From contig OX597819.1 of assembly GCA_951406725.2 (NCBI GenBank), forward strand, positions 65,286,001-65,350,000: a DNA stretch of 64,000 bases. The letters run 5' to 3'. The notes under the pieces are model-generated. The model searched no databases, was not told where the DNA came from, and saw only the letters and a program-made list of their open reading frames with translations. Below, one piece after another: positions 1,768 through 63,804 of this stretch; within the stretch, counting starts at the first letter, position 1; every line of letters begins with the position of its first letter. A program made the position numbers and the translations under genes. Source of the DNA: Octopus vulgaris. Taxonomy: Eukaryota.

Positions 1768-1875
1768 GCAACATCCTTCGACCATCTGAAAACTGAATCT
1801 TTCAAACTCATACAGGATGAACTTAAAGCATTAATACCCGCTTTAACGTTTCGAAGTCTGCAATGTGTCCAATAG
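1768..1875 (+). CDS. Candidate terminal coding exon of an unidentified host gene ([35 protein letters not shown])
   Basis: Acceptor tgtttatgttttcag| ends at 1767. A phase-0 open frame of normal complexity runs to TAG 1875, with AATAAA motifs near 2070-2083. Protein not recognised. Confidence 0.45.
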
Positions 1876-3110
1876 AGCTATTAACAATATACTATTGTGC
1901 TATTTTGTATCTATTCATCTAGTTATATTAGCTTATACTCGTATTTGATAAACTTGCACTTTTGTTGTAAATTCAAATGTAATACGTACTATTTAACCAA
2001 TACAGAATTTATTATTGATTTAAGGACAAAATAACATAGACAGAGCTCAAGCTTTATCTAGCAATGGTAAATAAAATAATAAATGTGACTTGTTCTACTC
2101 CGTTTCATATTTCATCGGAGTAAGATTACATATGATATATCTGCACGGAGGTTTTTGGCATTAATTCATAGTTTATTCTTGTGTAGAATCTCAAACGTAT
2201 CTAACTGTAATGTCAATTTGTACGAATGTCTTTGTGCTGACAACCTGGATAAATCTGCTATTTAATAGATTGACAGATTGTCAAAAACAGTTGAGAATCG
2301 TAAAATAGATGCTCTGCAGTATTTATATACTCCAGATGTTTATGAACTGGTTACGAATCCTGCCGATATCAACCGTGTATTTTCTTGCCATCGAGCTAAA
2401 TAAATAAATCTAACTGTTGAGTTGTTGAGTCGATAGTATCGACTGAACGCCCCTTTTAAACCTCTGTCATTTTCCTCATATGAAATAACATAGTTAAGCG
2501 AGTTCTAGGGATCTTAGACTTGCAGAATAGTTAGAGATTCGGAAATTTGCTGTGCATTATTTGTTACGAATTTTATGATACAAAATGCAACACCGGGCGT
2601 GCTGAGCTTTACATTTTCTCTTTCCAAGTTTAATGAAAAGAAGTAGCAATCAAACATTTGGATCAATAGTTTCCACTCGTATCAACTCATCAAAATTACA
2701 GACCCTGGTCTAAATCAGAAAACAGCCATTTATAATCCACTACACCATCTTTCGTGTATAATTTGGATTCTAAACAAACAATAAGTATCACACGACTCAA
2801 ATTTGGTTAAATTACAGTTTATGTTTCTAGTTACATTAGACTTGTGGTCATATCATTTCATTTGTAAACAAAAAAATGTTTTAAAATTCTTTGGGAATAT
2901 AATATAGAATTGTTTGTTTCCCATTTTTCTTTTCGTCTTCATTTTGTTTTTTAGTGAATGTCTGTTTGTGATTACGAGATATAGTTTTCGAGAAATCTCT
3001 TCATAGAAAATAGAGTGAACAGTGTTACTGAACACCTTGGCTCTTCACAAATATAGAGACATGTTTACACGCTCACTCATGTATGTATCTGCGTATGTGT
3101 CTGTGTATAC

Positions 3111-3157
<47 letters not shown>

Positions 3158-3240
3158 GGTCCCGGGTTGATTCGGGGTTAACCACAGTAAATAAGGTACT
3201 CAATACATAGCAGAGTAAAATTAATTTATTATATAGAAGG

Positions 3241-3291
3241 AGCTTCTACAGGACTAGAACTGTTTCATTCAAGAGAAATCTTCAGGAAGCT
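3241..3291 (-). ncRNA. Type I hammerhead ribozyme motif
   Basis: Minus strand: AGCTTC-CTGAAGA-tttctcttgaat-GAAACAG-ttctagtc-CTGTA^-GAAGCT. Helix I 6 bp, helix III ACAG/CTGT, GUA triplet, weak helix II. Confidence 0.75.
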
Positions 3292-4444
3292 AGTTAACAA
3301 GAATTGTATTGGCCTTTATACATTTAGGCAGGTTTAAAGGGGTGTTGGTGGGGGACTTTTTGGGGGTAGGCATAGCGCAAAATATCATCCTTGGGGAGTG
3401 GTCAGGGAGTCAGTGTTAAATTAGATAGAAGAATAAATAAAAAAATAAAAAAAATAAAAAAATATATATAAAAAAAAATATATATATAGAAAAAATGGGG
3501 GAGTAGAGTGTTAGGTAAATAAGGAGATTCTCACTTATACCTATGCACATATGTATACATATATACACACACATACAAACATATATACATATACATACAC
3601 ACATACATACACACACATATATATACATATATATACACTTACACATACATATACATATCTACACATACACATATATGTATACATACACACACTCACATGC
3701 ATACACGTATACACACATGTATATATACACACACGACCACACATACATATACACACAGAAAAATATACATACACATACACACACATACTCACATACACGC
3801 ATACACACACATATCCACACACACACATGCACACACAGCACACTAGTCCCTATATACACATATATACACATACACACATATATACATACACACACATACA
3901 TATACATAGATATATATATATATATATATATACATATGTGTACCTATGCATACCTACACATACACACATATATATATATATATACACATACAAATACAGA
4001 CCCATTCCCTCCTCCTTAACAAAATCTCAGAACACTCCCCAAATTGTATGCATAAGAAGTATGCGAACTACAAGAACTATAGACCTACCCGGCAACCAGA
4101 TTGATGACACCCCACCCACAAAACCCCCCCAATCCCACCGTTCCCCTAGCACCCCCGATTACCTTTTCTCCTAAGACCTTTCACATATTGTATGTGCACG
4201 CTTGTATATGTGTATCGTATATATGTATAGAAATGTATGGGTATAGTAGGAATATACGCATGTATTATGTGTGTGTGTGTGTGTATGTATGTAAAAAAAA
4301 TATATATATATATATATATTTGTATGTGCGTGTGTGTATGTGTGTGTGTGTATATATGTATATATGTATGTATGTATAAATGTATATATGTGTGTATGCA
4401 TATGTATGTGTATATGTATGTGTGTATGTATGTGTATGTATGTA

Positions 4445-4660
4445 TAAAATATTATATAATTAGGGCTTAGTAAAATAAATTACTTTGCCACATACTGAAC
4501 TTTCTAGAAATAGCAGCCAAAAAAGTTTTTTAGCCTCTTCCACTACTTAGAGAATATCTTCCCTCAGACATTGTTTACTCAAAAAAATAATGGTCCTTTT
4601 ACATACTGAATACTTGGTGAAATTGATTAATAACTAATTAACTTTACCCTCAATTGTTGA
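4445..4660. repeat. Interspersed repeat related to 29955-30170, internally rearranged
   Basis: 4445-4570 resembles 30060-30170 (tagaaatagcagccaaa). 4592-4660 is the reverse complement of 29960-30040. Confidence 0.6.
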
Positions 4661-4740
4661 TATATGTATGTGTGTGTATATATATATGTGTGTGTATATA
4701 TATATATATGTACATGTATGTATATGTGTATGTATGTATG

Positions 4741-4813
<73 letters not shown>

Positions 4814-5322
4814 ATATGTGTATTATATATGTATATATTTATATATATATATATATGTATATGTATATGTATGTGTGTGTGTATATGTATATATGTGTAT
4901 ATATATGAGTGTACGCGAGTATGTCGATGTATATGTAGGTATGTAGAGTTATGTGTATGTGCATGTATGTGAGTGTAGATACAAATTGTAGATGTGTATA
5001 TATATGTAAGTGTATATATACATGTATATAGGTATATGTATGTGTGTGTATATGTATATATATATATATATATATATGTATATGCGAGTATGTAGCGATA
5101 TAAGTATGTGCATGTGTATATATATGTGTGTATATATATGTATAGGTATGTGTATGTGTATGTATGTATATATATATATGTGTGTGTGTATGTATGCATA
5201 TATGTATGTATGTATGTATATGTGTATGTATATATGTGTGTAAGTGTGAGTATATATGTAAATGTAAGTGTGTGTGCTTGTATGAGTATGTATGTATGTT
5301 TGCACACATGTATATGTGTGTG

Positions 5323-5399
<77 letters not shown>

Positions 5400-5678
5400 A
5401 TATGTGTGTGTGTGTATATATGTGTGTGTATGTGTGTGTGTGTATATATGTGTGTATGTGTATGTATGTATGTATATATATGCGTGTGTATGTGTATGTG
5501 TATATGTACATATACGCGTACGCTCGTGTGTTTATGTATATGTAGGTACGTAGAGTTATCTATGTGTGTATATATTTGTACATGTGTGTAAGTATGTATA
5601 TATATATATGTGTATGTGTGTGTGTGTATATATATATGTGTATATATGTATATGTATATATATGTGTATATATGTATG

Positions 5679-5727
<49 letters not shown>

Positions 5728-6111
5728 AAGTTTATATGTATGTATCCGTCTATATAATAGGTAACTGCACGTACATATACTTAATATTTATTATTTATTT
5801 TTTGAGTATGCATGTATGAATAACTGCGCGTATATATATTTTACTATTTACTTATTTTTGAGTATGCATGTAAGTATGAATATAAGGAGGCGCGTGTGTG
5901 TGTGTGTATGTGTAAGCATAGATATATGTATACTTTTACGCATGTGTGTACTTATGTGTATATATGGATGCGCGCGTGTGTGTGTGTGTGTATGGGTACG
6001 CATGTACATGTGTATGTGCGTGTATGTGTATATGAGTATGTATGTGTGTGCGTATATTTGTATATGTATGTATGTATATGTATGTGTGTGTATGAATGTA
6101 TATATATATAT

Positions 6112-6250
6112 GAAACTTTAGCGACTGAAGAAGGGGATTTTTCGTTGTGCTTATTGTCCTGTATTTCCTTTTTTTGCTTGTCTTGTTCCTTGGTTTGTGT
6201 CTATGTTTTTCGTCTCTCTATGTGTTCGACGTCCTTTTGGTGTCCTGTAC
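6112..6250 (+). repeat. 5'-truncated copy of the repeat family at 8470-8675
   Basis: Shares ctga(a/t)gaagggga...gtgtcctgtac with the minus strand of 8470-8610. Embedded in TA/TG microsatellite. Confidence 0.6.
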
Positions 6251-6324
6251 ACATATACGCGTGTATATGTACATGTAGAGGTAGGTACGTACATATATGT
6301 TTATATATATGCATATATTTTATT

Positions 6325-6380
<56 letters not shown>

Positions 6381-7026
6381 TATGTATGTATGTATCTGGG
6401 TGTGTGTATGTGTATAAATGTATGTATGTATGGATGTATGGATGTATGTATGTATGTATACGTATGTATGTGTATGTGTGTATATGTATGTATGTGTATG
6501 TGTATATATATGTATATGTGTGTATGTGTGTATATATGTGTATATATATATATATATGTGTATATATATATGTGAATATATATGTATATATATATATATA
6601 TACATGTATGTATTTGTATGTAGGTGTATATGTATGTGTGTGTATTTATATTTATTGGTGTATATGTATAGACTAGCCTTCTAAGAGTGTAGACATGAAT
6701 CTGTAGGTACGCGTACGTATGTGTATATACGTGAATGTATGTAGATGTATGTATGTATGAATATAACGCGTGCGTGCGTGTATGTGTATGAGTGTACGAA
6801 TGAGTGAGTGTACGTGCTAAAGAGTGTGCGTGAGTGAATGAGTGCTTGTTTTCCAGTAGACAGATATATGGACTGGCTGTCATAGCCAAGATGTTTGTGA
6901 CCAAGCGGCCAAAGATAATAAAAGTAATAAACGAAGATAATAAAATGAAAATTACGGAATGGGTCTGTATTTGTATGTGTATATATATATATATATGTGT
7001 GTATGTGTAGGTATGCATAGGTACAC

Positions 7027-7066
<40 letters not shown>

Positions 7067-7680
7067 ATGTATGTGTGTGTATGTATATATGTGTGTATGT
7101 GTATATATGTGTATATAGGGACTAGTGTGCTGTGTGTGCATGTGTGTGTGTGGATATGTGTGTGTATGCGTGTATGTGAGTATGTGTGTGTATGTGTATA
7201 TATATTTTTCTGTGTGTATATGTATGTGTGGTCGTGTGTGTATATATACATGTGTGTATACGTGTATGCATGTGAGTGTGTGTATGTATACATATATGTG
7301 TATGTGTAGATATGTATATGTATGTGTAAGTGTATATATATGTATATATATGTGTGTGTATGTATGTGTGTATGTATATGTATATATGTTTGTATGTGTA
7401 TGTATATATGTATACATATGTGCATAGGTATAAGTGAGAATCTCCTTATTTACCTAACACTCTACTCCCCCATTTTTTCTATATATATATCTTTTTATAT
7501 ATATTTTTTATTTTTTTTTTTTTTTATTTTTTATTTATTCTTCTATCTAATTTAACACTGACTCCCTGACCACTCCCCCAAGTATGATATTTTGCGCTAT
7601 GCCTACCCCCAAAAAGTCCCCCACCAACACCCCTTTAAACCTGCCTAAATGTATAAATGCCAATACAATTCTTGTTAACT

Positions 7681-7731
7681 AGCTTCCTGAAGATTTCTCT
7701 TGAATGAAACAGTTCTAGTCCTGTAGAAGCT
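7681..7731 (+). ncRNA. Type I hammerhead ribozyme motif (inverted copy of 3241-3291)
   Basis: agcttc ctgaaga tttctcttgaat gaaacag ttctagtc ctgta gaagct. Confidence 0.75.
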
Positions 7732-7741
7732 CCTTCTATAT

Positions 7742-7820
<79 letters not shown>

Positions 7821-8254: not shown

Positions 8255-8258
<4 letters not shown>

Positions 8259-8437
8259 TGATCTGAGAACATAATCTTTTGTGGAGAATGACGATTTGAC
8301 GTCTATATCTAGCATGTTGACTGTCCACTTTTCGTGTTCAGTCCTTAATTGGTATATATAAATATTTTAATCTTCGGATTCTTTTTTAATATGCTAGACC
8401 ACTGGTCTTAATTGATAAATATCAATTTCTACCCTTA

Positions 8438-8445
<8 letters not shown>
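8255..8445 (+). repeat. Fragment of the family at 26048-26724 (opposite orientation)
   Basis: gacgtctatatctagcatgttgac and aatcttcggatt are reverse complements of 26480-26660. Confidence 0.85.
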
Positions 8446-8469
<24 letters not shown>

Positions 8470-8471
<2 letters not shown>

Positions 8472-8675
8472 AGTACAGGACACCACAAATAAACGTAGAA
8501 CACAACGAGAAACGAAAACATGAAAACAAACTAGGAAACGGACTTTTTTTAACAACGAAAAAACAGAGTACAAGACAAACAATACAAGGAATATTCCCCT
8601 TCATCAGCTGTCCCTGGTTCGACTCAATGCGTGTTTCGAAGGTAAGGACAGAACACGATCCGGTCGAATCACATT
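8470..8675 (-). mobile_element. Short TA-embedded repeat with hammerhead core boxes in unusual order
   Basis: Minus strand has GAAAC (8637-8633) before CTGATGA (8607-8601), with three complementary segment pairs. Homologue at 6112. Confidence 0.55.
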
Positions 8676-9815
8676 ATATATATATGTATATATATATACG
8701 TGCGTGTATGTATATATTTGTGTCTCTGTGTTTGTCCCCCCAACCTCGCTTAACAACCGATGCTGGTGTGTTTACTTTCCCGTTATTTAGCGGTCCAGCA
8801 AGACAGACCGAGAGAATAAGTACTTTGCTTACAAAGAATAAGTCCTGGGGTCGATTTGATCGACTAAAGGCAGTGCCCCAGCATGGCCACTGTCAACTGA
8901 CTGAAACAAATAAAAGAAAGAAAAGGAAAAGAATACATACATACATACGCACATACAGACAGACAGACAGACACATGTTTCTATGTATATATGTATGAAT
9001 ATATATCAGGATTAGCGAACCCATTCTACATGTATGAAGATATCATATCATACCCTATAATATCTTACCATTTCTCAAATTGCATATACGCACGATGTAA
9101 TTGTCGTAGCATGAGTAATGAATTGGTCTCTCTTCTCGCCTTCTGTGATTCTGGTTCAGTTATCTAGTTCCTCACTCTGTATTTTACAAAAGGCTTTAAT
9201 TTTAGTAGAGAGATTGTATGACTTTTCATTCTAGAACTTTACTTTGGGGCCGAGTTTCTACCATTTTTTCATCATTTCCAAACAACAAATAAATTGCTGC
9301 GCAAATATTTTAGCTATGTTATCAGAAATTGATCTTGTAGTCCTTATCGATTTCATTGTGCACAATTAAATCGTACAATTTCAGTCAACTTACTGGTATT
9401 ATCCCCATTATTTAGCATTTAGTGCTAAGCCTTGGAGGGACATATTATCCAATAGATGTTTGAAAAAACCTCTCATATATAACATATCGGAAAATCATAT
9501 AACATATAGGAAAATCTATCGTATGTATAAATGAATATATGTTTGTGTGTGTGAATACATTTTCAATTACAATGGACGTTGCGTTATACTGAAATGACTT
9601 CGAATTTCTGAAGACTGTTCTGGAGACATATGTGACATTTATTGTGCTTCAGTTCCATTATTGGATGCCATGTGTATCTTGTCACACTAAATGATCTCTA
9701 CTAAGATTACGTTTTCTAGAAATGTCATAGTGATGGCTTTCTTGACTGGTTGACATGTTGGAAGGACCTGGAGATTACACATCTCTCTATGTTGTCATAT
9801 ACATATAGAGAACTA

Positions 9816-14066: not shown

Positions 14067-15363
14067 TTAAGTAACTTCGGTAGAAAAATTAAGGTAATAT
14101 ACCCATCGAAATAGTAATGTCAGCGCTGATATATTTTCATTAACCATGAAATTGTAATCAATGAAATTTTCTGTTTTTTCATATATTAAAGAAGCTGGCG
14201 GAGAATTTGCATTTAAGTGAAAATCTTCAAGTTCCCTACCAATCCATGTAATTATTACCACCAATAATATGCAACTGTAAGGATATGGCAATAATGTAAA
14301 GCTGAACAGTTCCTGGTACCACAGACCGTCCATGATTCGTTTATAAAAACTCCTCTTTAATGGGATTTTAACTAAAACTTCTATTAAATTATCATTCAAA
14401 TTTGTATTTCGAAAGCGTAGAGCAAAGTAACAAAATCTTGAATTTTTCCCTATTTATAATGAAACGAAGACAGTGCACTATGATAGGGCTGTTGGAACAA
14501 ACTCTTTTGATTACTTAGATGTCGATCTCTCGATTTCATCAGATAATTGTTTTTGTTTCTTCTTCTTCTTCCAATCAGGACTCACGCCATTAACCACAAA
14601 GAATAATCTCTAATTCGAGCCTACTCTAAGCTACTAAGAATGCGTGTGGCAACTTGAAGATCCACCCACCACACGCGATAGCCTGGTGGTTGTACGGGCA
14701 CGAAAGCTACGTTGTTATCCTTATTCCGTAAACGGTGGCTTTTAACGGGTGGAGAGCTGAACCATCCTGGGGTACAGAGAGAATTAGCAATCTAGACTAG
14801 GGTCTGAATGTTTACCCCACCATAGTGGGTTACACCATGGTTCCTCTGCTTAGTGGAAGAAGTAAGATGAAAGAGTGAGAGAAAGTAGTGGTGAAAGGGT
14901 ACAACAGGGTTCACCACCATCCCCGCCGGAGCCTCGTGGAGCCTAGGGGTTTTTGCTCAGTAAACACACACAATGACCGGTCTGTGAATCGAAACTGCAT
15001 TCTTACGACTGCAAGTCCGCTGGCCTAGCCACTGGGCCATTGCGCCTCCACTATTGTTGTTTCTATCATTCTTACTCTTGACATAATCTTGTTTTGTAGT
15101 GCAAGGGCGTGTCACCGAGTATCTGCTTTTTTTTTTGGTCTTTTTTTATAGGGGTTTAGCTACGTTTCTTCATTTTTGCAGATAAATATCTTTAATCATC
15201 ATGACATTTCACCAGAATAACCATACCTAAAACAGCAATTTACAATTTCCCCTCCTTTTCCTTTAATTGCATAATTAATTAATTGATTTATCTACTTACT
15301 TTTGAGAGTGAAGACTCCTAGTCTGTTATCTTTAGCACGTCGACAACCTCGAAATTCATCCAT
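14067..15363 (-). CDS. Tentative two-exon ORF (15363-15300 joined to 14449-14067), ~148 aa, unknown product
   Basis: gccgATGG start. The phase-1 donor A|GTAAGT at 15300/15299 is compatible with acceptor ataaatag|GG at 14449, and the frame is open ~127 codons to TAA. No recognisable domain. Confidence 0.3.
14565..15051 (-). mobile_element. tRNA-derived SINE family C with (GAA)n tail
   Basis: Minus-strand head gtggaggcgcaatggcccagtggctagg...gtttcgattc (A/B boxes). Body shared with 32858-33000. Ends in gaagaagaag. Confidence 0.8.
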
Positions 15364-21920: not shown

Positions 21921-22002
<82 letters not shown>

Positions 22003-22019
22003 GCCTGAATGTTTCCCTT

Positions 22020-22584
22020 GTTAACAATTAACACAGAAAAAATAGATCAATAGTTACCAGGGTAGCAAAAAATCACACAAGTAAAAGGGTTGTAGCTCCT
22101 TGTTTTTACAAGGTTCACATGAAATATTTCGTATAATATATATAAATAACAGGAGTTAAACGAAGGTGTTATTCAAATTCTTTTACTTCCGACACATGTT
22201 TCGAAGTTATCACTGGTGATATTCCAAAGGAATAAAATGGTGTAAAACAATGTAATCTTCTCTTCAGGGAAATGAAGAAATGAAACTCATATACATATTG
22301 TATTTATTAGACTTCCTTTCCTTTATCCATCCTCTTTTTATAGGCTACCTCTCATGCTATATCCCATAACGCTTTTTTTAAACAATCTGAATACGTTCAG
22401 AAAATCACTATACATATCCATCATTTTTGATTAAAATGTCTTATTGACGAGTTTCGTTTCTTCACTTCCCTGAAGAGAAGACTACATTGTTTTACCTCAT
22501 TTTATTCCTTTGGAATGATACCAGTGATATCTTCGAAACATGTGTCTAAAGTAAAAGGATTTGAATAAGAGCTGCATTTAACTC

Positions 22585-22588
<4 letters not shown>
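22020..22588. mobile_element. Foldback element with hammerhead-bearing inverted arms 22151-22289 and 22449-22588
   Basis: ~140-bp reverse-complement arms with a 160-bp spacer, flanked by (GA)n/(TA)n. Confidence 0.85.
22185..22273 (-). ncRNA. Type I hammerhead ribozyme with long helix II
   Basis: ATTTCC-CTGAAGA-GAAG...CTTC-GAAACATGTGTC^-GGAAGT. The plus-strand copy at 22464-22552 has a mismatched helix I. Confidence 0.8.
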
Positions 22589-22643
<55 letters not shown>

Positions 22644-23744: not shown

Positions 23745-23805
<61 letters not shown>

Positions 23806-23806
23806 T

Positions 23807-24290
23807 TTTATATTATATTGAGGGTACTACTATTCGTAGATACCAACACGCTATGAGGGACCAATGCGGTCAAAACTACTAAAAATAAACAAAATTTTAC
23901 CGAATGCAAAAACTTCAAAACACATCATTTTAAAAAAGAATTCAGTTACATATCACATGTGATTTCGCATTTAATGCAGATTATGCATTTCATGTTCATC
24001 AGTGCAACAAACATTAAATGCGAAATTACATGTGATATGTAACTGAATTCTTTTTTAAAATGATGTGTTTTGAAGTTTTTGCATTCGGTAAAATTTTGTT
24101 TATTTTTAGTAGTTTTGACCGCATTGGTCCCTCTTAGCGTGTTGGTATCTACGAATAGTAGTACCCTCAATATAATATAAATGAATATTTTCAAAGAGGA
24201 AAAATTTACGGATTTTTTCTCTTATGAGGTTTTTCACGCTGACTACTGATAATTTCTTTTAAAGATTTTATCCTCAATTGTTAATTTATG
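23807..24290. mobile_element. Foldback element, 170-bp near-perfect arms 23807-23976 and 24012-24181
   Basis: Reverse-complement arms with a 35-nt spacer. The right arm continues ~110 bp further. The left end abuts (TA)n. Confidence 0.9.
23945..24008 (-). ncRNA. Type I hammerhead ribozyme
   Basis: GTTGCA-CTGATGA-aCAT...ATGc-GAAATCAC at GTGATA^-TGTAAC. Helix III is palindromic (ATCACATGTGAT) with an AUA triplet. Confidence 0.8.
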
Positions 24291-26047: not shown

Positions 26048-26724
26048 AAAGGACTGACCACTAAAAGTGGGCGGTCAACATGCTAGATATAGACGTCAAA
26101 TCGCTATTTTCCACAAAAAATATGTTCTCAAATAAAAAAACCAGCACGAACCAAAGTCTTAAAAATAAGCAAGACAAATGAAAATATACGAAATAAAAAT
26201 GGTTACCTATGTACTGATCAGTTTCGATTGTTATTATCCACGCATGTAAATACCCGCAATCTCTTCAGCATAGTCGTCATATAGAAATACAATTTGCTGG
26301 ACTAGATACAAAAACGTTTGACCGAAGTCTCGCATGCATAGAGTCCAACCAATTATATTTATGTGTATCTTTCAAATGCCTTCACTTTGGCGCGCTGAGA
26401 TTGGAAATCTACCCTGCAGCTAATAAGCAGGAGCAGTCAATTTACCGGTTAGAGAACATTTATTATTATTTAAAATTTAATTAGGGTAGAAATTGATATT
26501 AATCAATTAAAACAAGTGGCCTAGCATATTAAAAAAATCCGAAGATTAAAATATTTTTACATACAAAATTTAAAGGACTGACCACTAAAAGTGGACGGTC
26601 AACATGCTAGATATAGACGTCAGATCGCTATTTTCCACAAAAAATATGTTCTCAAATAAAAACCAGCACGAACCAAAGTCTTAAAAATAAGCAAGACAAA
26701 TGAAAATATACGAAATAAAAATGG
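26048..26724 (-). mobile_element. Partial-tandem (1.3-mer) hammerhead element, retrozyme/Penelope pLTR-like; 524-bp period
   Basis: Near-identical direct repeats 26048-26202 and 26572-26724 flank a unique segment containing an HHR. TA tracts lie on both sides. Confidence 0.85.
26207..26273 (-). ncRNA. Type I hammerhead ribozyme
   Basis: CTATG-CTGAAGA-GATTG...CAATC-GAAACTGATCAGTA^-CATAG. All three helices pair, helix III is palindromic (ACTGATCAGT), GUA triplet. Confidence 0.9.
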
Positions 26725-26739
26725 GTATATATATATATA

Positions 26740-29959: not shown

Positions 29960-31753
29960 CAATAATAACAAAGGATAAAATTAATTAATTAACTAGTAAT
30001 CAATAATTTCACCAAGTAGAATTCGGTATGAAAAAGGACAATTTCTCGGTAAACTTAAGTAATATTTTATAATTAGGGTTCAGCAAATATCTGCTTTACC
30101 ACACACCGAAGTTTAGAAATAGCAGCCAAAGAACCTTAGCTATTTCCTCTACTTTAAAAAGAGCCTCCCGGACAAAAACAAAGTACTGGAAAACAATCCA
30201 CGCAGGCAGAGAGGTAAAATAACGAAAATCAATCGATATCTGATTACCCATGACCAAATACACCACTTGTTTCTTGGCTGCATCAATTTGCCAAATGTTT
30301 GAGTCATTTTGGATAGATTCTGTTGTTAACGTCCAGAACGATGTTGGTAATTTTTTCTGTCCCATGAAGTACTGATTTAACTCTAAACGTTAAACCATTT
30401 GATAAATATGCTACCTCATGATCGAACTTATTCGCAAATATAATCTATAAATGAATGTCCAATTGTATTTTCAGTGTCATTGTTTTCTTAAAGGATAATT
30501 GTCGCATTTATATAAATATTTCTAATACATGTTTTGATGGAAGAACGATATTAATGATAATATTATTTGACGGGCATTTATTCTACTCAGTGTGAAAATA
30601 TTAAAAAGCAACGCCGATCTCGACCTGCTGAAATTCAGAAATTTGAGTAACTACTACATACCTCAAGCAATCTTCACCGACGCTCTAGCGATTCTGAGGA
30701 AGCGTTACACTTAAAACTTTGCAAATGTCTTCTTGAAAAATGATCTCGTAAATGTTATGCCTTTGAGTAATTTAAAACAAAAAATCTGATTCCACTTCCA
30801 TACGCTTGGAAACTTTATAAGTAAATTTGTTTCAGCTGCTAAAGAAAACCTTGCGGAAAATTGTGAAATACACAGCTTACAGCGAAGTAACTGATTCGAA
30901 TATGTAGTGAGTGTGTTCTACTTTAGAAATTATTTGGCTTAGTTCGTATGATTGTTTTAGTTCGTCTGACAGTACATCTGAACTTTTGACATTGTTTCAA
31001 GTCATAATTCAGTTTCGTGATATATATATATATATATATATATTCAGTTTCGTGATATACATTTATATATATACATATATATAATTCATAACGAAGAAGA
31101 GAATGGAGATTTATAGACATGGAAAACTTTTATATTAAAATGTTTTCTACTGCATATATAACACTGACCTTCATGTGTTTCGACCGCTACAATTAATTGA
31201 AATCCGAATATATATTTTAAAAGTACACTTCAAGTGCAATGCCAGTAGAGGTGATTATAAATCCAGAATTCTATTGGACTTAAGAAGTAACGCTATCACT
31301 ACGCAGGACATTTGTTTAAATGAGTTCACTTTGAAAACGTCATGAGTTATGGAGCATTGAAGGAACTGCAGCGACCAGGATGCATGATTGCATACAGTGC
31401 AATGTGCAGTTGCTGGATTCGGAACATGTAGGTCAGTGTTATGTATGTTGTGGAGAACATTTAGTTAAAATACTTCGTTATTAATTATATAGTCTACGAA
31501 TGATATGCAGTTCTGAATAGGATCATGGAACTATCCAACGAGTGAAGCTTAACAGTACCACATTTTGAGTTCTATGTAACTGCACCGTTGTCAACAGCCG
31601 GCATCTACACTAATATGTAAGATAATAGTGTCCGCCGAGATAATGTATCACTTTAATTTTCTCTCTCTCCCTCTCTCTTTCTTTTTCCCTCTCTTACCTC
31701 TGTCTATCAATCCTTCTCACTTTCTCTCTCTACATATGTATATTTATGTGTGT

Positions 31754-32781: not shown

Positions 32782-32788
<7 letters not shown>

Positions 32789-33070
32789 ATCACGTGACCG
32801 ACCAGACCATCAGATGTTGTTACATATCGCTGGTCACAATGCGTTCGCATTGTTTTTCGATTCCCAGACCGGGCGTTGTGAGTGTTTATTGAACGAAAAC
32901 ACCAAAAAGCTCCACGAGGCTCCGGCAGGGGGTGATGATCCCTGCTGTACTCTCTCACCACTCTTTCTCCCACTCTTTCTTCCGTTGGCCTGCTCGAAGG
33001 CAAAAACAATGCGAACGCATTGTGACCAGCGATGTGTAACAACATCTGATGGTCTGGTCGGTCACGTGAT

Positions 33071-33077
<7 letters not shown>
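32782..33077. mobile_element. 296-bp element with 76-bp inverted termini enclosing SINE C body, in (TA)n
   Basis: Arms 32782-32857 and 33002-33077 differ at one position. The interior matches the reverse complement of 14870-14993. Confidence 0.9.
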
Positions 33078-34929: not shown

Positions 34930-35512
34930 GTCGACAAGCTGCCAAAAATGTCAGCACGCTGGGCGAAATCCGTAATCGTATTTCGCCTGCCGTTACGTTC
35001 TGAGTTCAAATTCCGCCGAGGTCGACTTTGCATTTAATCCTTTCAGGGTCGATAAATTAATTACCAGTTACGCACTGCGGTAAGTCGATGTAATCGACTT
35101 AATACGTTTGTTAGACCTTGTTTGTCTTCTCTGCGTTTAGCCTCTTGTGGGCAGTAAAGAAATAGGCATTACCTCTGCCGCTACGTTCTGAGTTCAAATT
35201 CCGCCGAGATTGGCTTTGCTTTTCATCCTTCTGGGGTCGATTAAATAAGTACCAGTTACGCACTGGGGTCGATGTAATCGACTTATCCGTTTGTCTGTTC
35301 TTCTTTCTCCTCTGTGTTTAGCCCCTTGTGGGTAGTAAAGAAATAGGTATTTCGTCTGCCGCTACGTTCTGAGTTCAAATTCCGCCGAGGACGACTTTGC
35401 CTTTCGTCTTTTCGGGCTCGATAAATTAAGTACCAGACCCGTACTGGGTCAATCTAATCTACTGGTCCCCCCACCCAAATTTCGCGCCTTGTGCCTAGAG
35501 TAGAAAAGAATT
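34930..35512 (+). mobile_element. SINE family B internal tandem trimer (~180-188-bp units)
   Basis: acgttctgagttcaaattccgccgag at ~34995, ~35183 and ~35364. Confidence 0.9.
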
Positions 35513-38430: not shown

Positions 38431-38543
38431 AGCAATAATACATCTCTGAGAGAGGTATAAAGAGATCAATGACTTTTCATCACTGGAAATAGGATATATA
38501 TATTTGCATTCGGAATCACTTCACGTCGACAGCCGGTGATTGT

Positions 38544-38588
38544 CACACGCTGATGACGGGTCAATATCCAGAAACTCGGGTCCGTGTG
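38544..38588 (+). ncRNA. Type I minimal hammerhead ribozyme within inverted-terminus family copy 38460-38745
   Basis: CACACG-CTGATGA-cGGGTcaatATCCa-GAAACTCGGGTC^-CGTGTG. Confidence 0.8.
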
Positions 38589-53188: not shown

Positions 53189-53700
53189 TTGTGGTGGTCC
53201 TATAGAGAACGATATTACTGTTGCTTTTAGCGCCAGGAAGACACCCTCTCTCTCCAGCTGGCTAACGACACACTGTCTGAGTGCGATTAGTTTTTGCGAG
53301 ATGTCATAGCCTTACGTGATACACACAAACGCGGGCTTCTGGGTAAATTACTCGTCTTTGGAATGTGATAATCGCGAGCTATTTAGAGGACGATATTACT
53401 GTTGCTTTTAGCGCCAGGAAGACACCCTCTCTCTCCAGCTGGCTAACGACACACTGTCTGAGTGCGATTAGTTTTTGCGAGATGTCATAGCCTTACGTGA
53501 TACACACAAACGCGGGCTTCTGGGTAAATTACTCGTCTTTGGAATGTGATAATCGCGAGCCATTTATGAAAACTCCTTCCACTCGGAAAATACTATGTCT
53601 TGTAACATCATCCCCTATGGGACCGCCACATTTAGTTGGCAAACATATCATACGATACAGTACTGTAACTGTTTACCTGTCGGTTAGAGATTTAATATAG
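53189..53700. mobile_element. Inverted-terminus family copy with a 181-bp internal tandem duplication (53203-53383, 53384-53560)
   Basis: Units are almost identical and each holds a degenerate minus-strand HHR. The right end is the reverse complement of 28690-28780. Confidence 0.8.
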
Positions 53701-56145: not shown

Positions 56146-57109
56146 GAATGGAGTAGGTAGAGCAATAGTCAGAAATGTGACCTGACTAAGATAAAGAAAA
56201 GAAACCGTTAAAGAAATCTAGGAGACGAAAGAAGGACAAGAGAGAAAGAACCATAGTGAGAACAATTTTCAGAACTGACGTGGAATGCAGAGGCACATGG
56301 GAAATGAGTGCAAGAGAGGAAGGGTTACAGACAAGTGAGATATATACGAGGAGAATACAATAAAGATAAGTTAGCGTGAAGCTGAAGACAAGACGGAGAA
56401 AAAATTGGAAGGATAGAAACTGAATGCAGAAAAGGTGGAATGAAATAAACTAGTAAGAAAGTCAGGTAAATAGAAAGAAGCTAAATAAAGTTAGAAGGGA
56501 TGAGGGATGGCAAGAATGATAGAAATAAAGAAAGGGTAAGGCAATCGAAAGGGGTGTATAGATTGGAAGCGAAGATATAATGCGCGGGAAAATGTGTAAG
56601 CAAGCAAGCAAGCCAGAAAGATGGGTAGAAAGGCAGAAAGATTGAAAGTGTAAAGTGTAAAAGGAAAAATGAGGAGAGAAAATAAACAGAAAGTTAATAC
56701 AAGCGAAGGAGAAAAATATATAGAAATTGAAGAGAATAGAAGCGTGTAGAGAAAGTTAATAGAAAGGACAGAGGTAAAATAGATAGAAAGCTAAGATGAT
56801 AAGAGCGGGGAAAAAGTGAACGACAGCGAGAGAAAAGAGGGAAATAGCATAAGAAAATAAAAAAAAGAACGTACAATATACTTTCGTCACCTATTAACTA
56901 ACCCCACAAAGATTGATTGGTTGTCTTGATAAATTACAGGTCAACTTGAAGTCGACTTAGCTGAAATTTAGGTTATTAACTTAGCGTTGACATATCAGCT
57001 GAGATTCGTGTATCTGGAAAAAAAAACAACATAAAATCCTACATGTACCAATTATTCTTTGTTTTGTTTACTTCTCCCCTCTCTCTCTCCCTCTGTATAT
57101 ATATGTATA

Positions 57110-57141
<32 letters not shown>

Positions 57142-57255
57142 AATATAAATATATATATATATACATATATATATACATATATATATACATATATAAATAC
57201 ATATATACATACATATATATATATACATACATATATATATATGTATATGCGTATA

Positions 57256-57319
<64 letters not shown>

Positions 57320-57481
57320 CATATATATACATATATAAATACATATATACATACATATACATACATATACATACATATACATACATATACATACATATAC
57401 ATACATATACATACATACATACATATACATACATACATATACATATACATATACATACATACATATACATATACATATACA

Positions 57482-57562
<81 letters not shown>

Positions 57563-58481
57563 GTTTTCGTCCCTCTTGTTGATTTCTTTTCTTCATATCA
57601 TTAAATAAACTATCGGAACAAGAATGCTGTCTCTTCCTATTCTATAGATATTTCTAGTTAATTTTGTTTGTTGTTTTTGTGTACCTTGTGGGTTGTTTAG
57701 TTTATATTTATGACTTTTGTTTTTTTGTAGAATGTTGCATTCTTTTGGTGGGTGCTTTCTTGTTTTTCCCCTTGTTTCCATTTTCGTATTTCTTTTGGTG
57801 TAGGGGGTATATCTTTTTTAATAAGGTTACATACAAATCATTATCGACCTTCCTTTGACACATTAAAGACCAACGATAGAAAATGAGGTGCACACACATA
57901 TGCATACAAGCAAACACACAATAATGAAAAGAAAAAATGGCTGCTGCATAAACAAGCAAAAATGCACATACAAAATAAGATGGAGGATTTGTGAGGGAAA
58001 GAAGAGTTAGAGGAAACACAAAATTTACAATATTTCTTTAAACAAGGTTACATACAAACTATTATCGTTCTTCACTTTACACACACAGAAAGACTCAAAG
58101 AAAACGATGTTTGATGTATACGAAAGGAAGCAAAATGGCGGAATTCGGAGCAAAATTGTTCGAGGAAAGACAGATTTTATAACATGTCTCCGAACGAGAT
58201 TGCGTAGAAAACATTATCTGCATTCTCTTTAAATAAATACCCACAAACTCACAGAAACTCACTCACTCTCTTAGTCATACGAAAAAAACATACGTACACA
58301 ACAACACAAAGAGAATGGCACTGTTCAGATCAAAATAGTTAGAAGATAGAAACAACGCTTGGAATATTTCTTTAATATAAGAGTGCTTAGAAATCATTTG
58401 CATTCCTTTTACGCATAATCATATTCAACACATGTACGCAAATTACATACTGCAGAGACAAGCAAATGCCTTCACACAAAC

Positions 58482-58553
<72 letters not shown>

Positions 58554-59618
58554 ACGCACTCACTCAAACAGACACACAGACACACACACTCACTCAAACA
58601 CACACACAAACAAATATACAAAGACACAGACATGCATTTATATATGCACGCAAACAGTACAATATATTTAATACAACCGAAAAAGAGACAACCGTGGTAT
58701 TCAAAAGAGTTAGGAGGCAGATATTACAGTCACACAGAGGAATTACATGCGAACGAATGGAGATGAAAAGAAGCGATAGAAATAACGAAGGAAAGAAAAC
58801 AGAAATAAAAAACAGAACGAAGCAAAAGAAGAAAATTGAAGGGTAGCGTGATTTGATAAGTCGTAAGAAATAGATAGCAGATAGTTTAAATGAAACAGGC
58901 GAGAGAAGTGTCATGAAATGGTAGAGAACGCCAAAAAAAATATATATATACAATAATAAAACGAAATCAAGAAGAAATGGTAAGGGATCCTTGAAATCTA
59001 TGGCGCTATTGTTTCGTAAACAATCATGAATTTAAGAAAATGGAGTTATGAAACATTGTATTCCAGTATTTTTTGATAGTGTTCTAGACTCGCTGCTATT
59101 ATTTCTAATAATTCTGTTGATTTTCTGTAATATTTTATGAAACATCATTGTTTTTTTGTTTTACAAGCGTTTTACTTTTTTAATACTAAAAAAATAAACT
59201 GACGTCTAAACTTGATGGTAACTACCTGCATGGTTTAGAGTTTGTGTTGAAAATCATACAAGGATAACGGTAGGAACAGCATACATAGACTAAAAGAAAA
59301 TTTTGAACAATTCTGAAGATTGTGTAAGGTTATCTATGCCAGTAACAATATCTGTGAATATCAACATTAACTTTATGTCTCTCTACATATGTGTGTGTGT
59401 GTGTGTACACATAATAGCGGGGTTTAGTTCACGTATAATCTAAGTGATTAGGTATTCCAGCTAAGTGCTGTTACGGATTACTCGGGTTCCAAGGTTACAG
59501 CCGAGACGGTAGTTATGGAGCCATTGCAGGTTTCCGAGATAGCGGTTATATCATTGTTGAAGAAGACAACAAACGTTTAGGCAAAGCAAACATCTCAAGT
59601 TATATACATTATTATTAT

Positions 59619-60058
59619 TGGAAAAAATTCAAAGTCTTACAGCTGTTTCTAGGATATGCTAGAGTATGGGATATTCTATCATCAGAGACAAATATGGAAA
59701 ATGCGATTAATGAAATGACGAAATAGAGATGAGGAGCAAAGGAATAAGGAGACGAAAACAGAGAAGAAAAAAGAGCATAAATATTCAGTTAAACTTTCCG
59801 ATCTTGTAGAAATAACTCGGATTACGCCGGGTTGAGGCTAAGGACTTATGAGCTTATTTCTACAAGAAAGCTGAACCCTGAACTTCTATGCTATCTTTTC
59901 TTCTCTTTCTTCATCTCCTTATTCCATTACACCTGTACTTTATGTCGTCACTTCATTAATCTATACCCTCCTCATTTTCCCTCTTTGAGTCCGATGTCGG
60001 AATATCCCATACTCTCGGATATCCCAGAAACAGGTGTGAGACTCTGAATATTTTTCCA
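59619..60058. mobile_element. Older foldback element (arms ~59619-59729 and ~59939-60058)
   Basis: agagtatgggatattc / gaatatcccatactct and attaatgaaatgacga / tcgtcacttcattaat. Confidence 0.8.
59634..59689 (-). ncRNA. Type I hammerhead ribozyme
   Basis: GTCT-CTGATGA-TAGaATAT...ATATcCTA-GAAACAGCTGTA^-AGAC with palindromic helix III ACAGCTGT. The plus-arm copy is degenerate (ccgatgt). Confidence 0.8.
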
Positions 60059-60420
60059 GTAATAAAAATGCAAATATTTTGAGATGTTTCCCTTGCCTTA
60101 ATATTTGTTGTCCTCTTTAACAAATATACATACATACATATATACATACATATATACATACATATACATATATACATATACACATGCACACACGCATTCA
60201 TACAAACGCACATATATATGGGAGACATTAAATGTGTAAGTCTCTAAGTGCATCCAGGAGTTATGACCTGCAAGCAACGCAGCGCCCTTAAAACGAAAAA
60301 ATGTAAGGAGTTAACGGCCGACATCTGATGTGTAGCTCTCTTGAAAGTTTCTTGCCGCAACACTACTGTATATATGGTAGAGAGAAAGAAGCACGCACAT
60401 GCAAATACAGATTTACACCA

Positions 60421-63685: not shown

Positions 63686-63746
<61 letters not shown>

Positions 63747-63804
63747 CTTGGCTGATGAGAAATCACGCGCCTAGGTGGCGCTAAATTTTGAAACCTGTAC
63801 CAGG
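63747..63804 (+). ncRNA. Type I minimal hammerhead ribozyme directly after (TA)n
   Basis: CTTGG-CTGATGA-GAAAT cac GCGCC taggt GGCGC taa ATTTT-GAAACCTGTA^-CCAGG. Confidence 0.75.

What the first reader, a model, noticed from the sequence alone, without database searches (positions are those of the whole stretch)
3157..7746. 4.6-kb foldback whose 780-bp arms copy microsatellite-like DNA together with a ribozyme
Seen: the arms are near-identical even across ~450 bp of irregular TA/CA sequence. That low-complexity DNA was therefore copied recently as cargo rather than growing locally. HHRs point outward at both ends. The 2.9-kb interior is also degenerate TA/TG with pieces of other repeats. Inference: these elements spread microsatellite-like DNA (their own preferred landing sites) and could form a long dsRNA hairpin bounded by self-cleavage sites.
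Basis: partly seen in the sequence, partly recalled or inferred. Interest (0 to 1): 0.7.

Follow-up and report, generated by a model that had tools for sequence, protein, structure and literature searches.

The report
Penelope insertion carrying microsatellite cargo
Two mirror-image, 98% identical 780-base arms, each ending in a hammerhead ribozyme motif, are likely the known footprint of one Penelope-type jumping-gene insertion whose RNA also carried repetitive TA/TG DNA, but whether other copies carry that cargo is untested.

Summary
Arms 3226-4008 and 6956-7746 are 97.6% identical, including 455 of 462 columns of irregular TA/CA DNA, and each carries an outward-facing type I hammerhead motif. 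The ribozyme end belongs to a very abundant repeat. Public contigs show family copies ending in TA runs at the right arm's outer end (about 3224) and, with thin support, at the left arm's tail end (about 3157). Inverted truncated copy, one-sided tail and (TA)n target are the published anatomy of Penelope-like element (PLE) insertions. So both arms were likely reverse-transcribed from uncut RNA that included the block: cargo in this event. No RT/endonuclease ORF is present. Each strand has only one sense ribozyme, so no hairpin is 'bounded' by two cuts. Family-wide spread of the block could not be tested (no genome held, no reads laid on it). This scan already reported the same foldback anatomy many times on other DNA of this genome. 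The unusual part is the 3.2-kb body with TG:CA 465:32 on one strand. Verdict: new member of a known kind, interest 0.3.

The parts
3106..3156 (.). left half of the (TA)n target
   Evidence: TRF; flank view
3157..3225 (-). 69-nt one-sided tail, between the family's two likely RT start sites
   Evidence: absent from right arm; family-wide, with ends near 3157-3160 and 3220-3224
3226..4008 (-). left arm: inverted, 5'-truncated copy
3241..3291 (-). type I hammerhead motif, predicted cut after 3247
3300..3540 (-). C-rich 3' module, A/T linker (3433-3495) and 45-nt non-repetitive segment
   Evidence: contig cover up to 3429
3541..3998 (-). irregular TA/TG block, copy 1
4009..4190 (+). C-rich segment; either a decayed upstream direct repeat of the 3' module (+) or a G-rich continuation of the left copy (-)
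   Evidence: borderline similarity
4190..6955 (+). non-coding body, mostly irregular TA/TG with one-strand polarity
4446..4659 (.). rearranged fragment of a repeat also at about 29960-30180 (77% and 90% identity for the two pieces)
6113..6252 (+). nested stub of another repeat with half a hammerhead core, 76% like 8461-8690 reversed
6956..7746 (+). right arm: 3' end of the long copy, ending at the family's short end point
6966..7427 (+). irregular TA/TG block, copy 2
7681..7731 (+). type I hammerhead motif, predicted cut after 7725
7747..7816 (.). right half of the (TA)n target

Best explanation
This is likely one recent insertion made in trans by a Penelope-like retrotransposon enzyme, which would have cut both strands of a (TA)n tract and copied two uncut RNA molecules head to head from the family's two start sites, RNA that likely carried microsatellite-rich DNA captured upstream of a Penelope 3' end at one source locus. 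The left cDNA began at the tail end (3157) and stopped after about 850 nt. The right cDNA began at the short end (7746) and likely ran about 3.7 kb to 4009, where the two were joined. Shown: arms, tail, (TA)n flanks, ribozyme motifs, family end points, no coding frame. Inferred: the RNA route, the enzyme, the single event, and that the cargo belongs to one source locus rather than the whole family. The insertion is a protein-free scar; the ribozymes are predicted weak and would be masked in any read-through hairpin.
For: Anatomy equals the published PLE unit: inverted 5'-truncated copy, tail at one end, (TA)n target (PMC8557442 passages; Penelope-13_HM has a 966-nt inverted copy with a hammerhead on each strand). 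The purified anole PLE protein cuts and extends both strands, starts at two sites that define the tail, and uses uncut RNA (PMC11167929). 12095, 2435, 2034 and 205 contig records from 4 of 4 runs lie on 3157-3429; TA-run loose ends lie before 3220-3224 in all four runs; the long end is marked by one X10 contig (3160) and one X4 record that starts at 3157. The left arm cannot be a DNA copy of the right, because it has the tail; the right arm ends at a family end point. Each arm has a letter of its own against the family (3314 right, 3389 left). The hammerhead layout CUGANGAU...UGAAAC matches Hydra-clade motifs; common family variants inside the ribozyme fall only on N7 and loop III, not the core (2 of 8 listed places). 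The body holds old nested repeat pieces (76-77%) and no repeated 35-mer, as aged genomic DNA would. PLE terminal repeats moved a 4-kb host module in another animal (PMC6431247 passage).
Against: No second genomic copy with the block, no source locus, no empty allele and no long read were seen. The body is not typical flank DNA: 68% alternating vs 14%, TG:CA 465:32 vs 627:606, and a 16-bin one-polarity run vs at most 5 elsewhere; this suits a long-standing element UTR as well as a one-off capture. 4009-4190 has the left arm's CA polarity and folds colinearly against the C-rich module on the minus strand, which would put the junction near 4190 and need a second join at 6956. The tail is 69 nt, longer than the 30-40 bp in print. 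Support for the long end point is only two contigs among the rows shown. No link of this ribozyme family to a PLE ORF was shown here.
Confidence: 0.6

Rival explanations
1. Same insertion mechanism, but the block is a standing part of the 3' untranslated region of a PLE subfamily, so it is spread with every sufficiently long copy. The left copy would run on to about 4190, and its G-rich segment would pair with the C-rich module across the microsatellite loop.
Against: The pairing is borderline: 9 and 7 of 200 shuffles reach the duplex energy, 22-87 of 500 reach the alignment score over 10 tests, and an unrelated C-rich stretch ranks first of 788. It needs two joins instead of one. Many family contigs leave the sequence already at 3291. 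Sequence look-ups found no earlier finding like 3157-3430 or 4005-4195.
Confidence: 0.27
2. Two short PLE stubs landed independently around resident host DNA, and a DNA-level template switch or gene conversion later copied the block from one side to the other.
For: The family is very abundant, the window holds several other foldbacks, and the interior contains aged repeat fragments.
Against: Identity is uniform from ribozyme to inner boundary (98.6%, 100%, 98.5%); the two outer ends use one family end point each; the flanks read as one split (TA)n tract.
Confidence: 0.08
3. Assembly or fold-back read artefact.
For: No read or contig spanning the structure was seen; the DNA is highly repetitive.
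Against: The arms differ at 7 substitutions, each arm has private letters against the family, they are 2.9 kb apart, they do not extend into the flanks, and they stop at family end points.
Confidence: 0.05

Closest known systems
Endonuclease-bearing Penelope-like element insertion unit, Hydra clade, e.g. Penelope-13_HM (Craig et al. 2021, PMC8557442; passages, section 11 and supplement part 2 of 59 read)
   Same: Inverted 5'-truncated copy of about 0.8-1 kb, outward-facing hammerheads, one-sided tail, (TA)n target, CUGANGAU...UGAAAC ribozyme layout.
   Different: No RT/GIY-YIG ORF; body is microsatellite-like; tail is 69 nt; the hammerhead differs from that of Hydra-1_Obim, and 6 of 7 window motifs were absent from the supplement (1 hit, inside an unrelated coding sequence).
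Poseidon of Anolis, PAc (Frangieh et al. 2024, PMC11167929; main text read)
   Same: Two fixed end points downstream of the ribozyme, AT-rich target, ribozyme cut not used for insertion.
   Different: In PAc the ORF starts inside the hammerhead; here the ATG in the motif is followed by a stop after 4 codons.
Transduction of host DNA by PLE terminal repeats (Arkhipova et al. 2013, seen only as cited in PMC6431247, passages)
   Same: About 4 kb of non-element DNA moved with PLE ends as cis signals.
   Different: The cargo there is a gene module with an 8-bp target duplication; here it is non-coding repeat DNA and a duplication cannot be seen in (TA)n.
Microsatellites moved inside Penelope elements of penaeid shrimp (PMC7878876, passages)
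   Same: Simple repeats copied along with recent (>98% alike) Penelope copies.
   Different: Those copies are coding and were compared across loci; here both copies come from one event.
Animal non-LTR retrozymes (bioRxiv 10.64898/2026.07.22.740005, part 1 of 5 read)
   Same: Non-coding, type I hammerhead, dependent on PLE enzymes.
   Different: No tandem ribozyme-bearing units; one sense ribozyme per strand.

Membership tests
Autonomous EN+ Penelope-like element | single ORF with RT and GIY-YIG endonuclease | tested here: not met
   ORFs of 100 aa or more in the element are low-complexity; the two tested (3515-4171, 6944-7306) have 0 Pfam families
PLE-type insertion unit | inverted 5'-truncated copy joined head to head | tested here: met
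PLE-type insertion unit | tail at one end only; two fixed end points across copies | tested here: met
   69-nt tail; short end point in 4 of 4 runs, long end point in 2 contigs among rows shown
PLE-type insertion unit | insertion into (TA)n | tested here: met
   TA loose ends
PLE-type insertion unit | type I hammerhead motif near the sense 3' end | tested here: met
   not matched by Rfam models
PLE-type insertion unit | upstream direct repeat (pseudo-LTR) | tested here: inconclusive
   4009-4190 resembles the 3' module only at p about 0.04-0.17
Minimal PLE hammerhead (PMC4209133) | G10.1-C11.1 pair closing stem II | tested here: not met
   U.U here; the same U.U layout is common in Hydra-clade motifs
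Minimal PLE hammerhead (PMC4209133) | palindromic loop III | tested here: met
   CUAG here; a common family variant at 3258 lengthens it to 6 nt
Hammerhead ribozyme | self-cleavage | not testable with these tools
   fold only: -7.3 kcal/mol constrained, and a rival hairpin wins when 15 more nt are added
Hydra clade | RT/EN protein motifs of the parent element | not testable with these tools
   no genome held, no ORF in the window copy
Non-LTR retrozyme | tandem units each with a hammerhead | tested here: not met
   one sense motif per strand; no such period in TRF
Foldback DNA transposon (features recalled, from no call) | symmetric terminal inverted repeats | tested here: not met
   ends differ by a 69-nt one-sided tail

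The most novel reading that the evidence does not exclude
A PLE lineage acts as a microsatellite factory: read-through RNA captures the (TA)n tracts it lands in, A-to-I editing of the self-pairing (UA)n RNA turns TA into TG on the sense strand only, and reverse transcription pastes kilobases of this one-strand-polarised TA/TG DNA, with fresh (TA)n landing pads, across the genome. That would explain TG:CA 465:32 in the body and part of the irregular microsatellite load of this genome.
Probability: 0.12. Interest if true: 0.75.

Novelty: new member of a known kind. Interest (0 to 1): 0.3.

Why it matters
As it stands, it is a clean single example that a Penelope-type insertion can copy at least 460 nt, and likely about 3 kb, of microsatellite-like DNA, and it marks both start sites in one event. 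The architecture and the idea of transposon-borne microsatellites are published. It would matter more if the block or body proved multi-copy, or if its one-strand TG bias came from RNA editing: retrotransposition would then be a source, not just a user, of the simple-repeat DNA that fills such genomes.

Tried and rejected
No whole genome is held, so no genome-wide search was possible. Contigs could be laid only on the ribozyme end; cover is reported for 3157-3429 and none beyond, which says nothing about the block. Summed contig depth was not used as a copy number. No RNA holder is on record among the 24 runs listed; X10 is only a guess at RNA. A 26-nt ribozyme pattern found 0 matches in viral and 0 in metagenome contigs. 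Sequence look-ups in earlier findings: 0 for three stretches, 0 nearby. Rfam weak matches are TA/TG-like microRNA models far below their cut-offs and were rejected. A possible last exon at 1768-1875, which would put the foldback near a host 3' UTR, is unsupported: 0 Pfam families, and 2 library hits of which the one compared is a summed repeat match at 9 of 23 identities. Editing between the arms: 2 of 3 block substitutions are sense-strand A/G with G in the left arm, too few to count. Polarity of blocks outside the element is not significantly clustered (22 of 38 neighbours alike, p 0.16; longest run 8). Microhomology at 4008/4009 cannot be judged without a second copy. Literature searches with no useful hit on PLE template switching or on editing as a source of microsatellites.

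Full report
Observation. The window is AT-rich animal-type DNA (33% GC, no N). Earlier notes on this genome call it octopus; I did not test that. The two arms are 3226-4008 and 6956-7746, with 774 of 793 columns identical, 7 substitutions and 5 indel events. The irregular TA/CA block matches at 455 of 462 columns; 338 of its 428 31-mers recur in the other arm and none elsewhere in the window, and the best of 2469 other stretches scores 321 against 892. It was copied, not grown twice. The left arm has 69 extra nt (3157-3225). Both sides are (TA)n and read as one split tract.

Ribozyme. A type I hammerhead descriptor hits 7681-7731 (+) and 3291-3241 (-): stem I 6 bp, core CUGAAGA, stem II 3 bp closed by U.U, GAAA, stem III 4 bp, cut triplet GUA. 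The stricter descriptor has 3 hits in the window and 0 in 30 approximate shuffles. Rfam does not match it. The G10.1-C11.1 pair of minimal PLE hammerheads (PMC4209133, parts 1-2 of 4) is missing, but the U.U layout is common in Hydra-clade motifs in Craig's File S2. The fold is marginal (-7.3 kcal/mol) and loses to a rival hairpin once 15 downstream nt are added. Activity is untested.

Family. Laid on 3157-3540, four public runs give 12095, 2435, 2034 and 205 contig records, with cover on 3157-3429 only. So the ribozyme end with its tail is an abundant repeat. TA-run loose ends lie before 3220-3224 in all four runs, which is where the right arm ends. The long end is marked by one X10 contig at 3160 and one X4 record starting at 3157, among the rows shown (113 loose ends and 16864 pieces were not shown). 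Of 8 common variant places, only N7 and one loop III letter fall in the ribozyme. Many contigs leave the sequence at 3291, some into other hammerhead-like letters. Against the family, the right arm differs at 3314 and the left at 3389, so each arm has its own change.

Mechanism. Craig et al. describe PLE insertions as having an inverted 5'-truncated copy, a tail at one end and (TA)n targets; Penelope-13_HM carries a 966-nt inverted copy with a hammerhead on each strand. Frangieh et al. showed that a PLE protein cuts and extends both strands, starts at two sites that define the tail, and uses uncut RNA. Here both arms keep sequence beyond the predicted cut (21 and 90 nt), which fits. The left arm cannot derive from the right by DNA copying because of the tail, and the right arm stops at a family end point, so both are best read as cDNAs whose template held the block (inference). 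There is no coding frame, so the enzyme came in trans (inference).

The interior. It is 68% alternating sequence against 14% outside, with TG:CA 465:32 on the + strand against 627:606 outside, and the longest one-polarity run of the window (16 bins of 200 nt against 5). It has no repeated 35-mer and contains aged pieces of two other repeats (76-77% and 90% identity). The simplest reading has one junction, at 4008/4009, and one long cDNA from a source locus where genomic repeat DNA lay upstream of a PLE 3' end. 4009-4190 may be a decayed upstream direct repeat, as in PLE-mediated transduction (PMC6431247 passage). Against this, 4009-4190 shares the left arm's polarity and on the minus strand folds colinearly against the C-rich module, like a UTR duplex that an unchecked note reports for another family. 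The statistics are borderline (9 and 7 of 200 shuffles; 22-87 of 500; rank 2 and 3 of 788), so this stays a rival.

Cargo in this event: supported. Spread by the family: untested, since no genome is held, no contig cover was obtained on the block, and pattern scans were empty. The general idea is in print for shrimp Penelope copies (PMC7878876 passages). Hairpin: the arms would pair strongly (-1326 kcal/mol) in any read-through RNA, but each strand has one sense ribozyme only, and it would be buried in the duplex. No read-through transcript and no neighbouring host gene were established.

Novelty. The foldback anatomy is published, and this scan has noted it repeatedly in this genome. Recently active Penelope families are reported in Octopus vulgaris (PMC13282606 passages). 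This ribozyme family is not Hydra-1_Obim and was not found by motif in Craig's supplement (only part 2 of 59 was read in full, so other parts may bear on this). What remains unusual is the long, one-strand-polarised microsatellite body. Slippage with strand bias could explain it; so could A-to-I editing of (UA)n RNA fixed by reverse transcription, for which I have only the polarity and 2 of 3 block substitutions. My searches found no paper proposing that route, which is weak evidence of absence. Verdict: real, a new member of a known kind, interest 0.3.

Noticed in passing
window 22000-22605: Foldback (arms 22132-22288 and 22449-22605, 88%) with extra sequence on the left only and (TA)n on the right; by eye the arms hold a hammerhead core with a stem II of about 60 nt, missed by my descriptors.
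   Followed up: partly
window 23800-24188: Near-perfect 390-bp palindrome (93%) beside a (TA)n tract, with a hammerhead-like core at about 24002 on the minus strand.
   Followed up: partly
window 59547-60128: Older foldback (74%) with a hammerhead motif at 59690-59634 (-) and a decayed mirror copy near 60000.
   Followed up: partly
window 26048-26735: Direct repeat of about 166 bp (95%) with a hammerhead motif between the copies at 26274-26207 (-); possible retrozyme-like partial tandem; related to 8257-8445.
   Followed up: no
window 32783-33076: 75-bp inverted arms (99%) between (TA)n tracts around a 145-bp core that matches 14866-14994.
   Followed up: no
window 38543-38588 and 63746-63804: Two further single hammerhead motifs on the + strand.
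   Followed up: no
window 8461-8690: Repeat with a CUGAUGA half core on the minus strand; a 76% alike stub is nested in the element at 6113-6252.
   Followed up: partly
window 57089-57571: Another long irregular TA/CA block with strong polarity (57 C, 7 G) and no ribozyme motif found beside it, so such blocks also occur outside the element.
   Followed up: no
window 1768-1875: Possible last coding exon (splice-acceptor-like end, 35 codons, stop, poly(A) signals at 2070-2399); no homologue found.
   Followed up: yes
window 34978-35436 and 53203-53566: Two 181-bp tandem repeats (2.5 and 2 copies).
   Followed up: no
public contigs laid on window 3291: Many family contigs continue at 3291 into a different hammerhead-like sequence in the opposite sense, suggesting very short head-to-head foldbacks of two ribozyme variants.
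   Followed up: no
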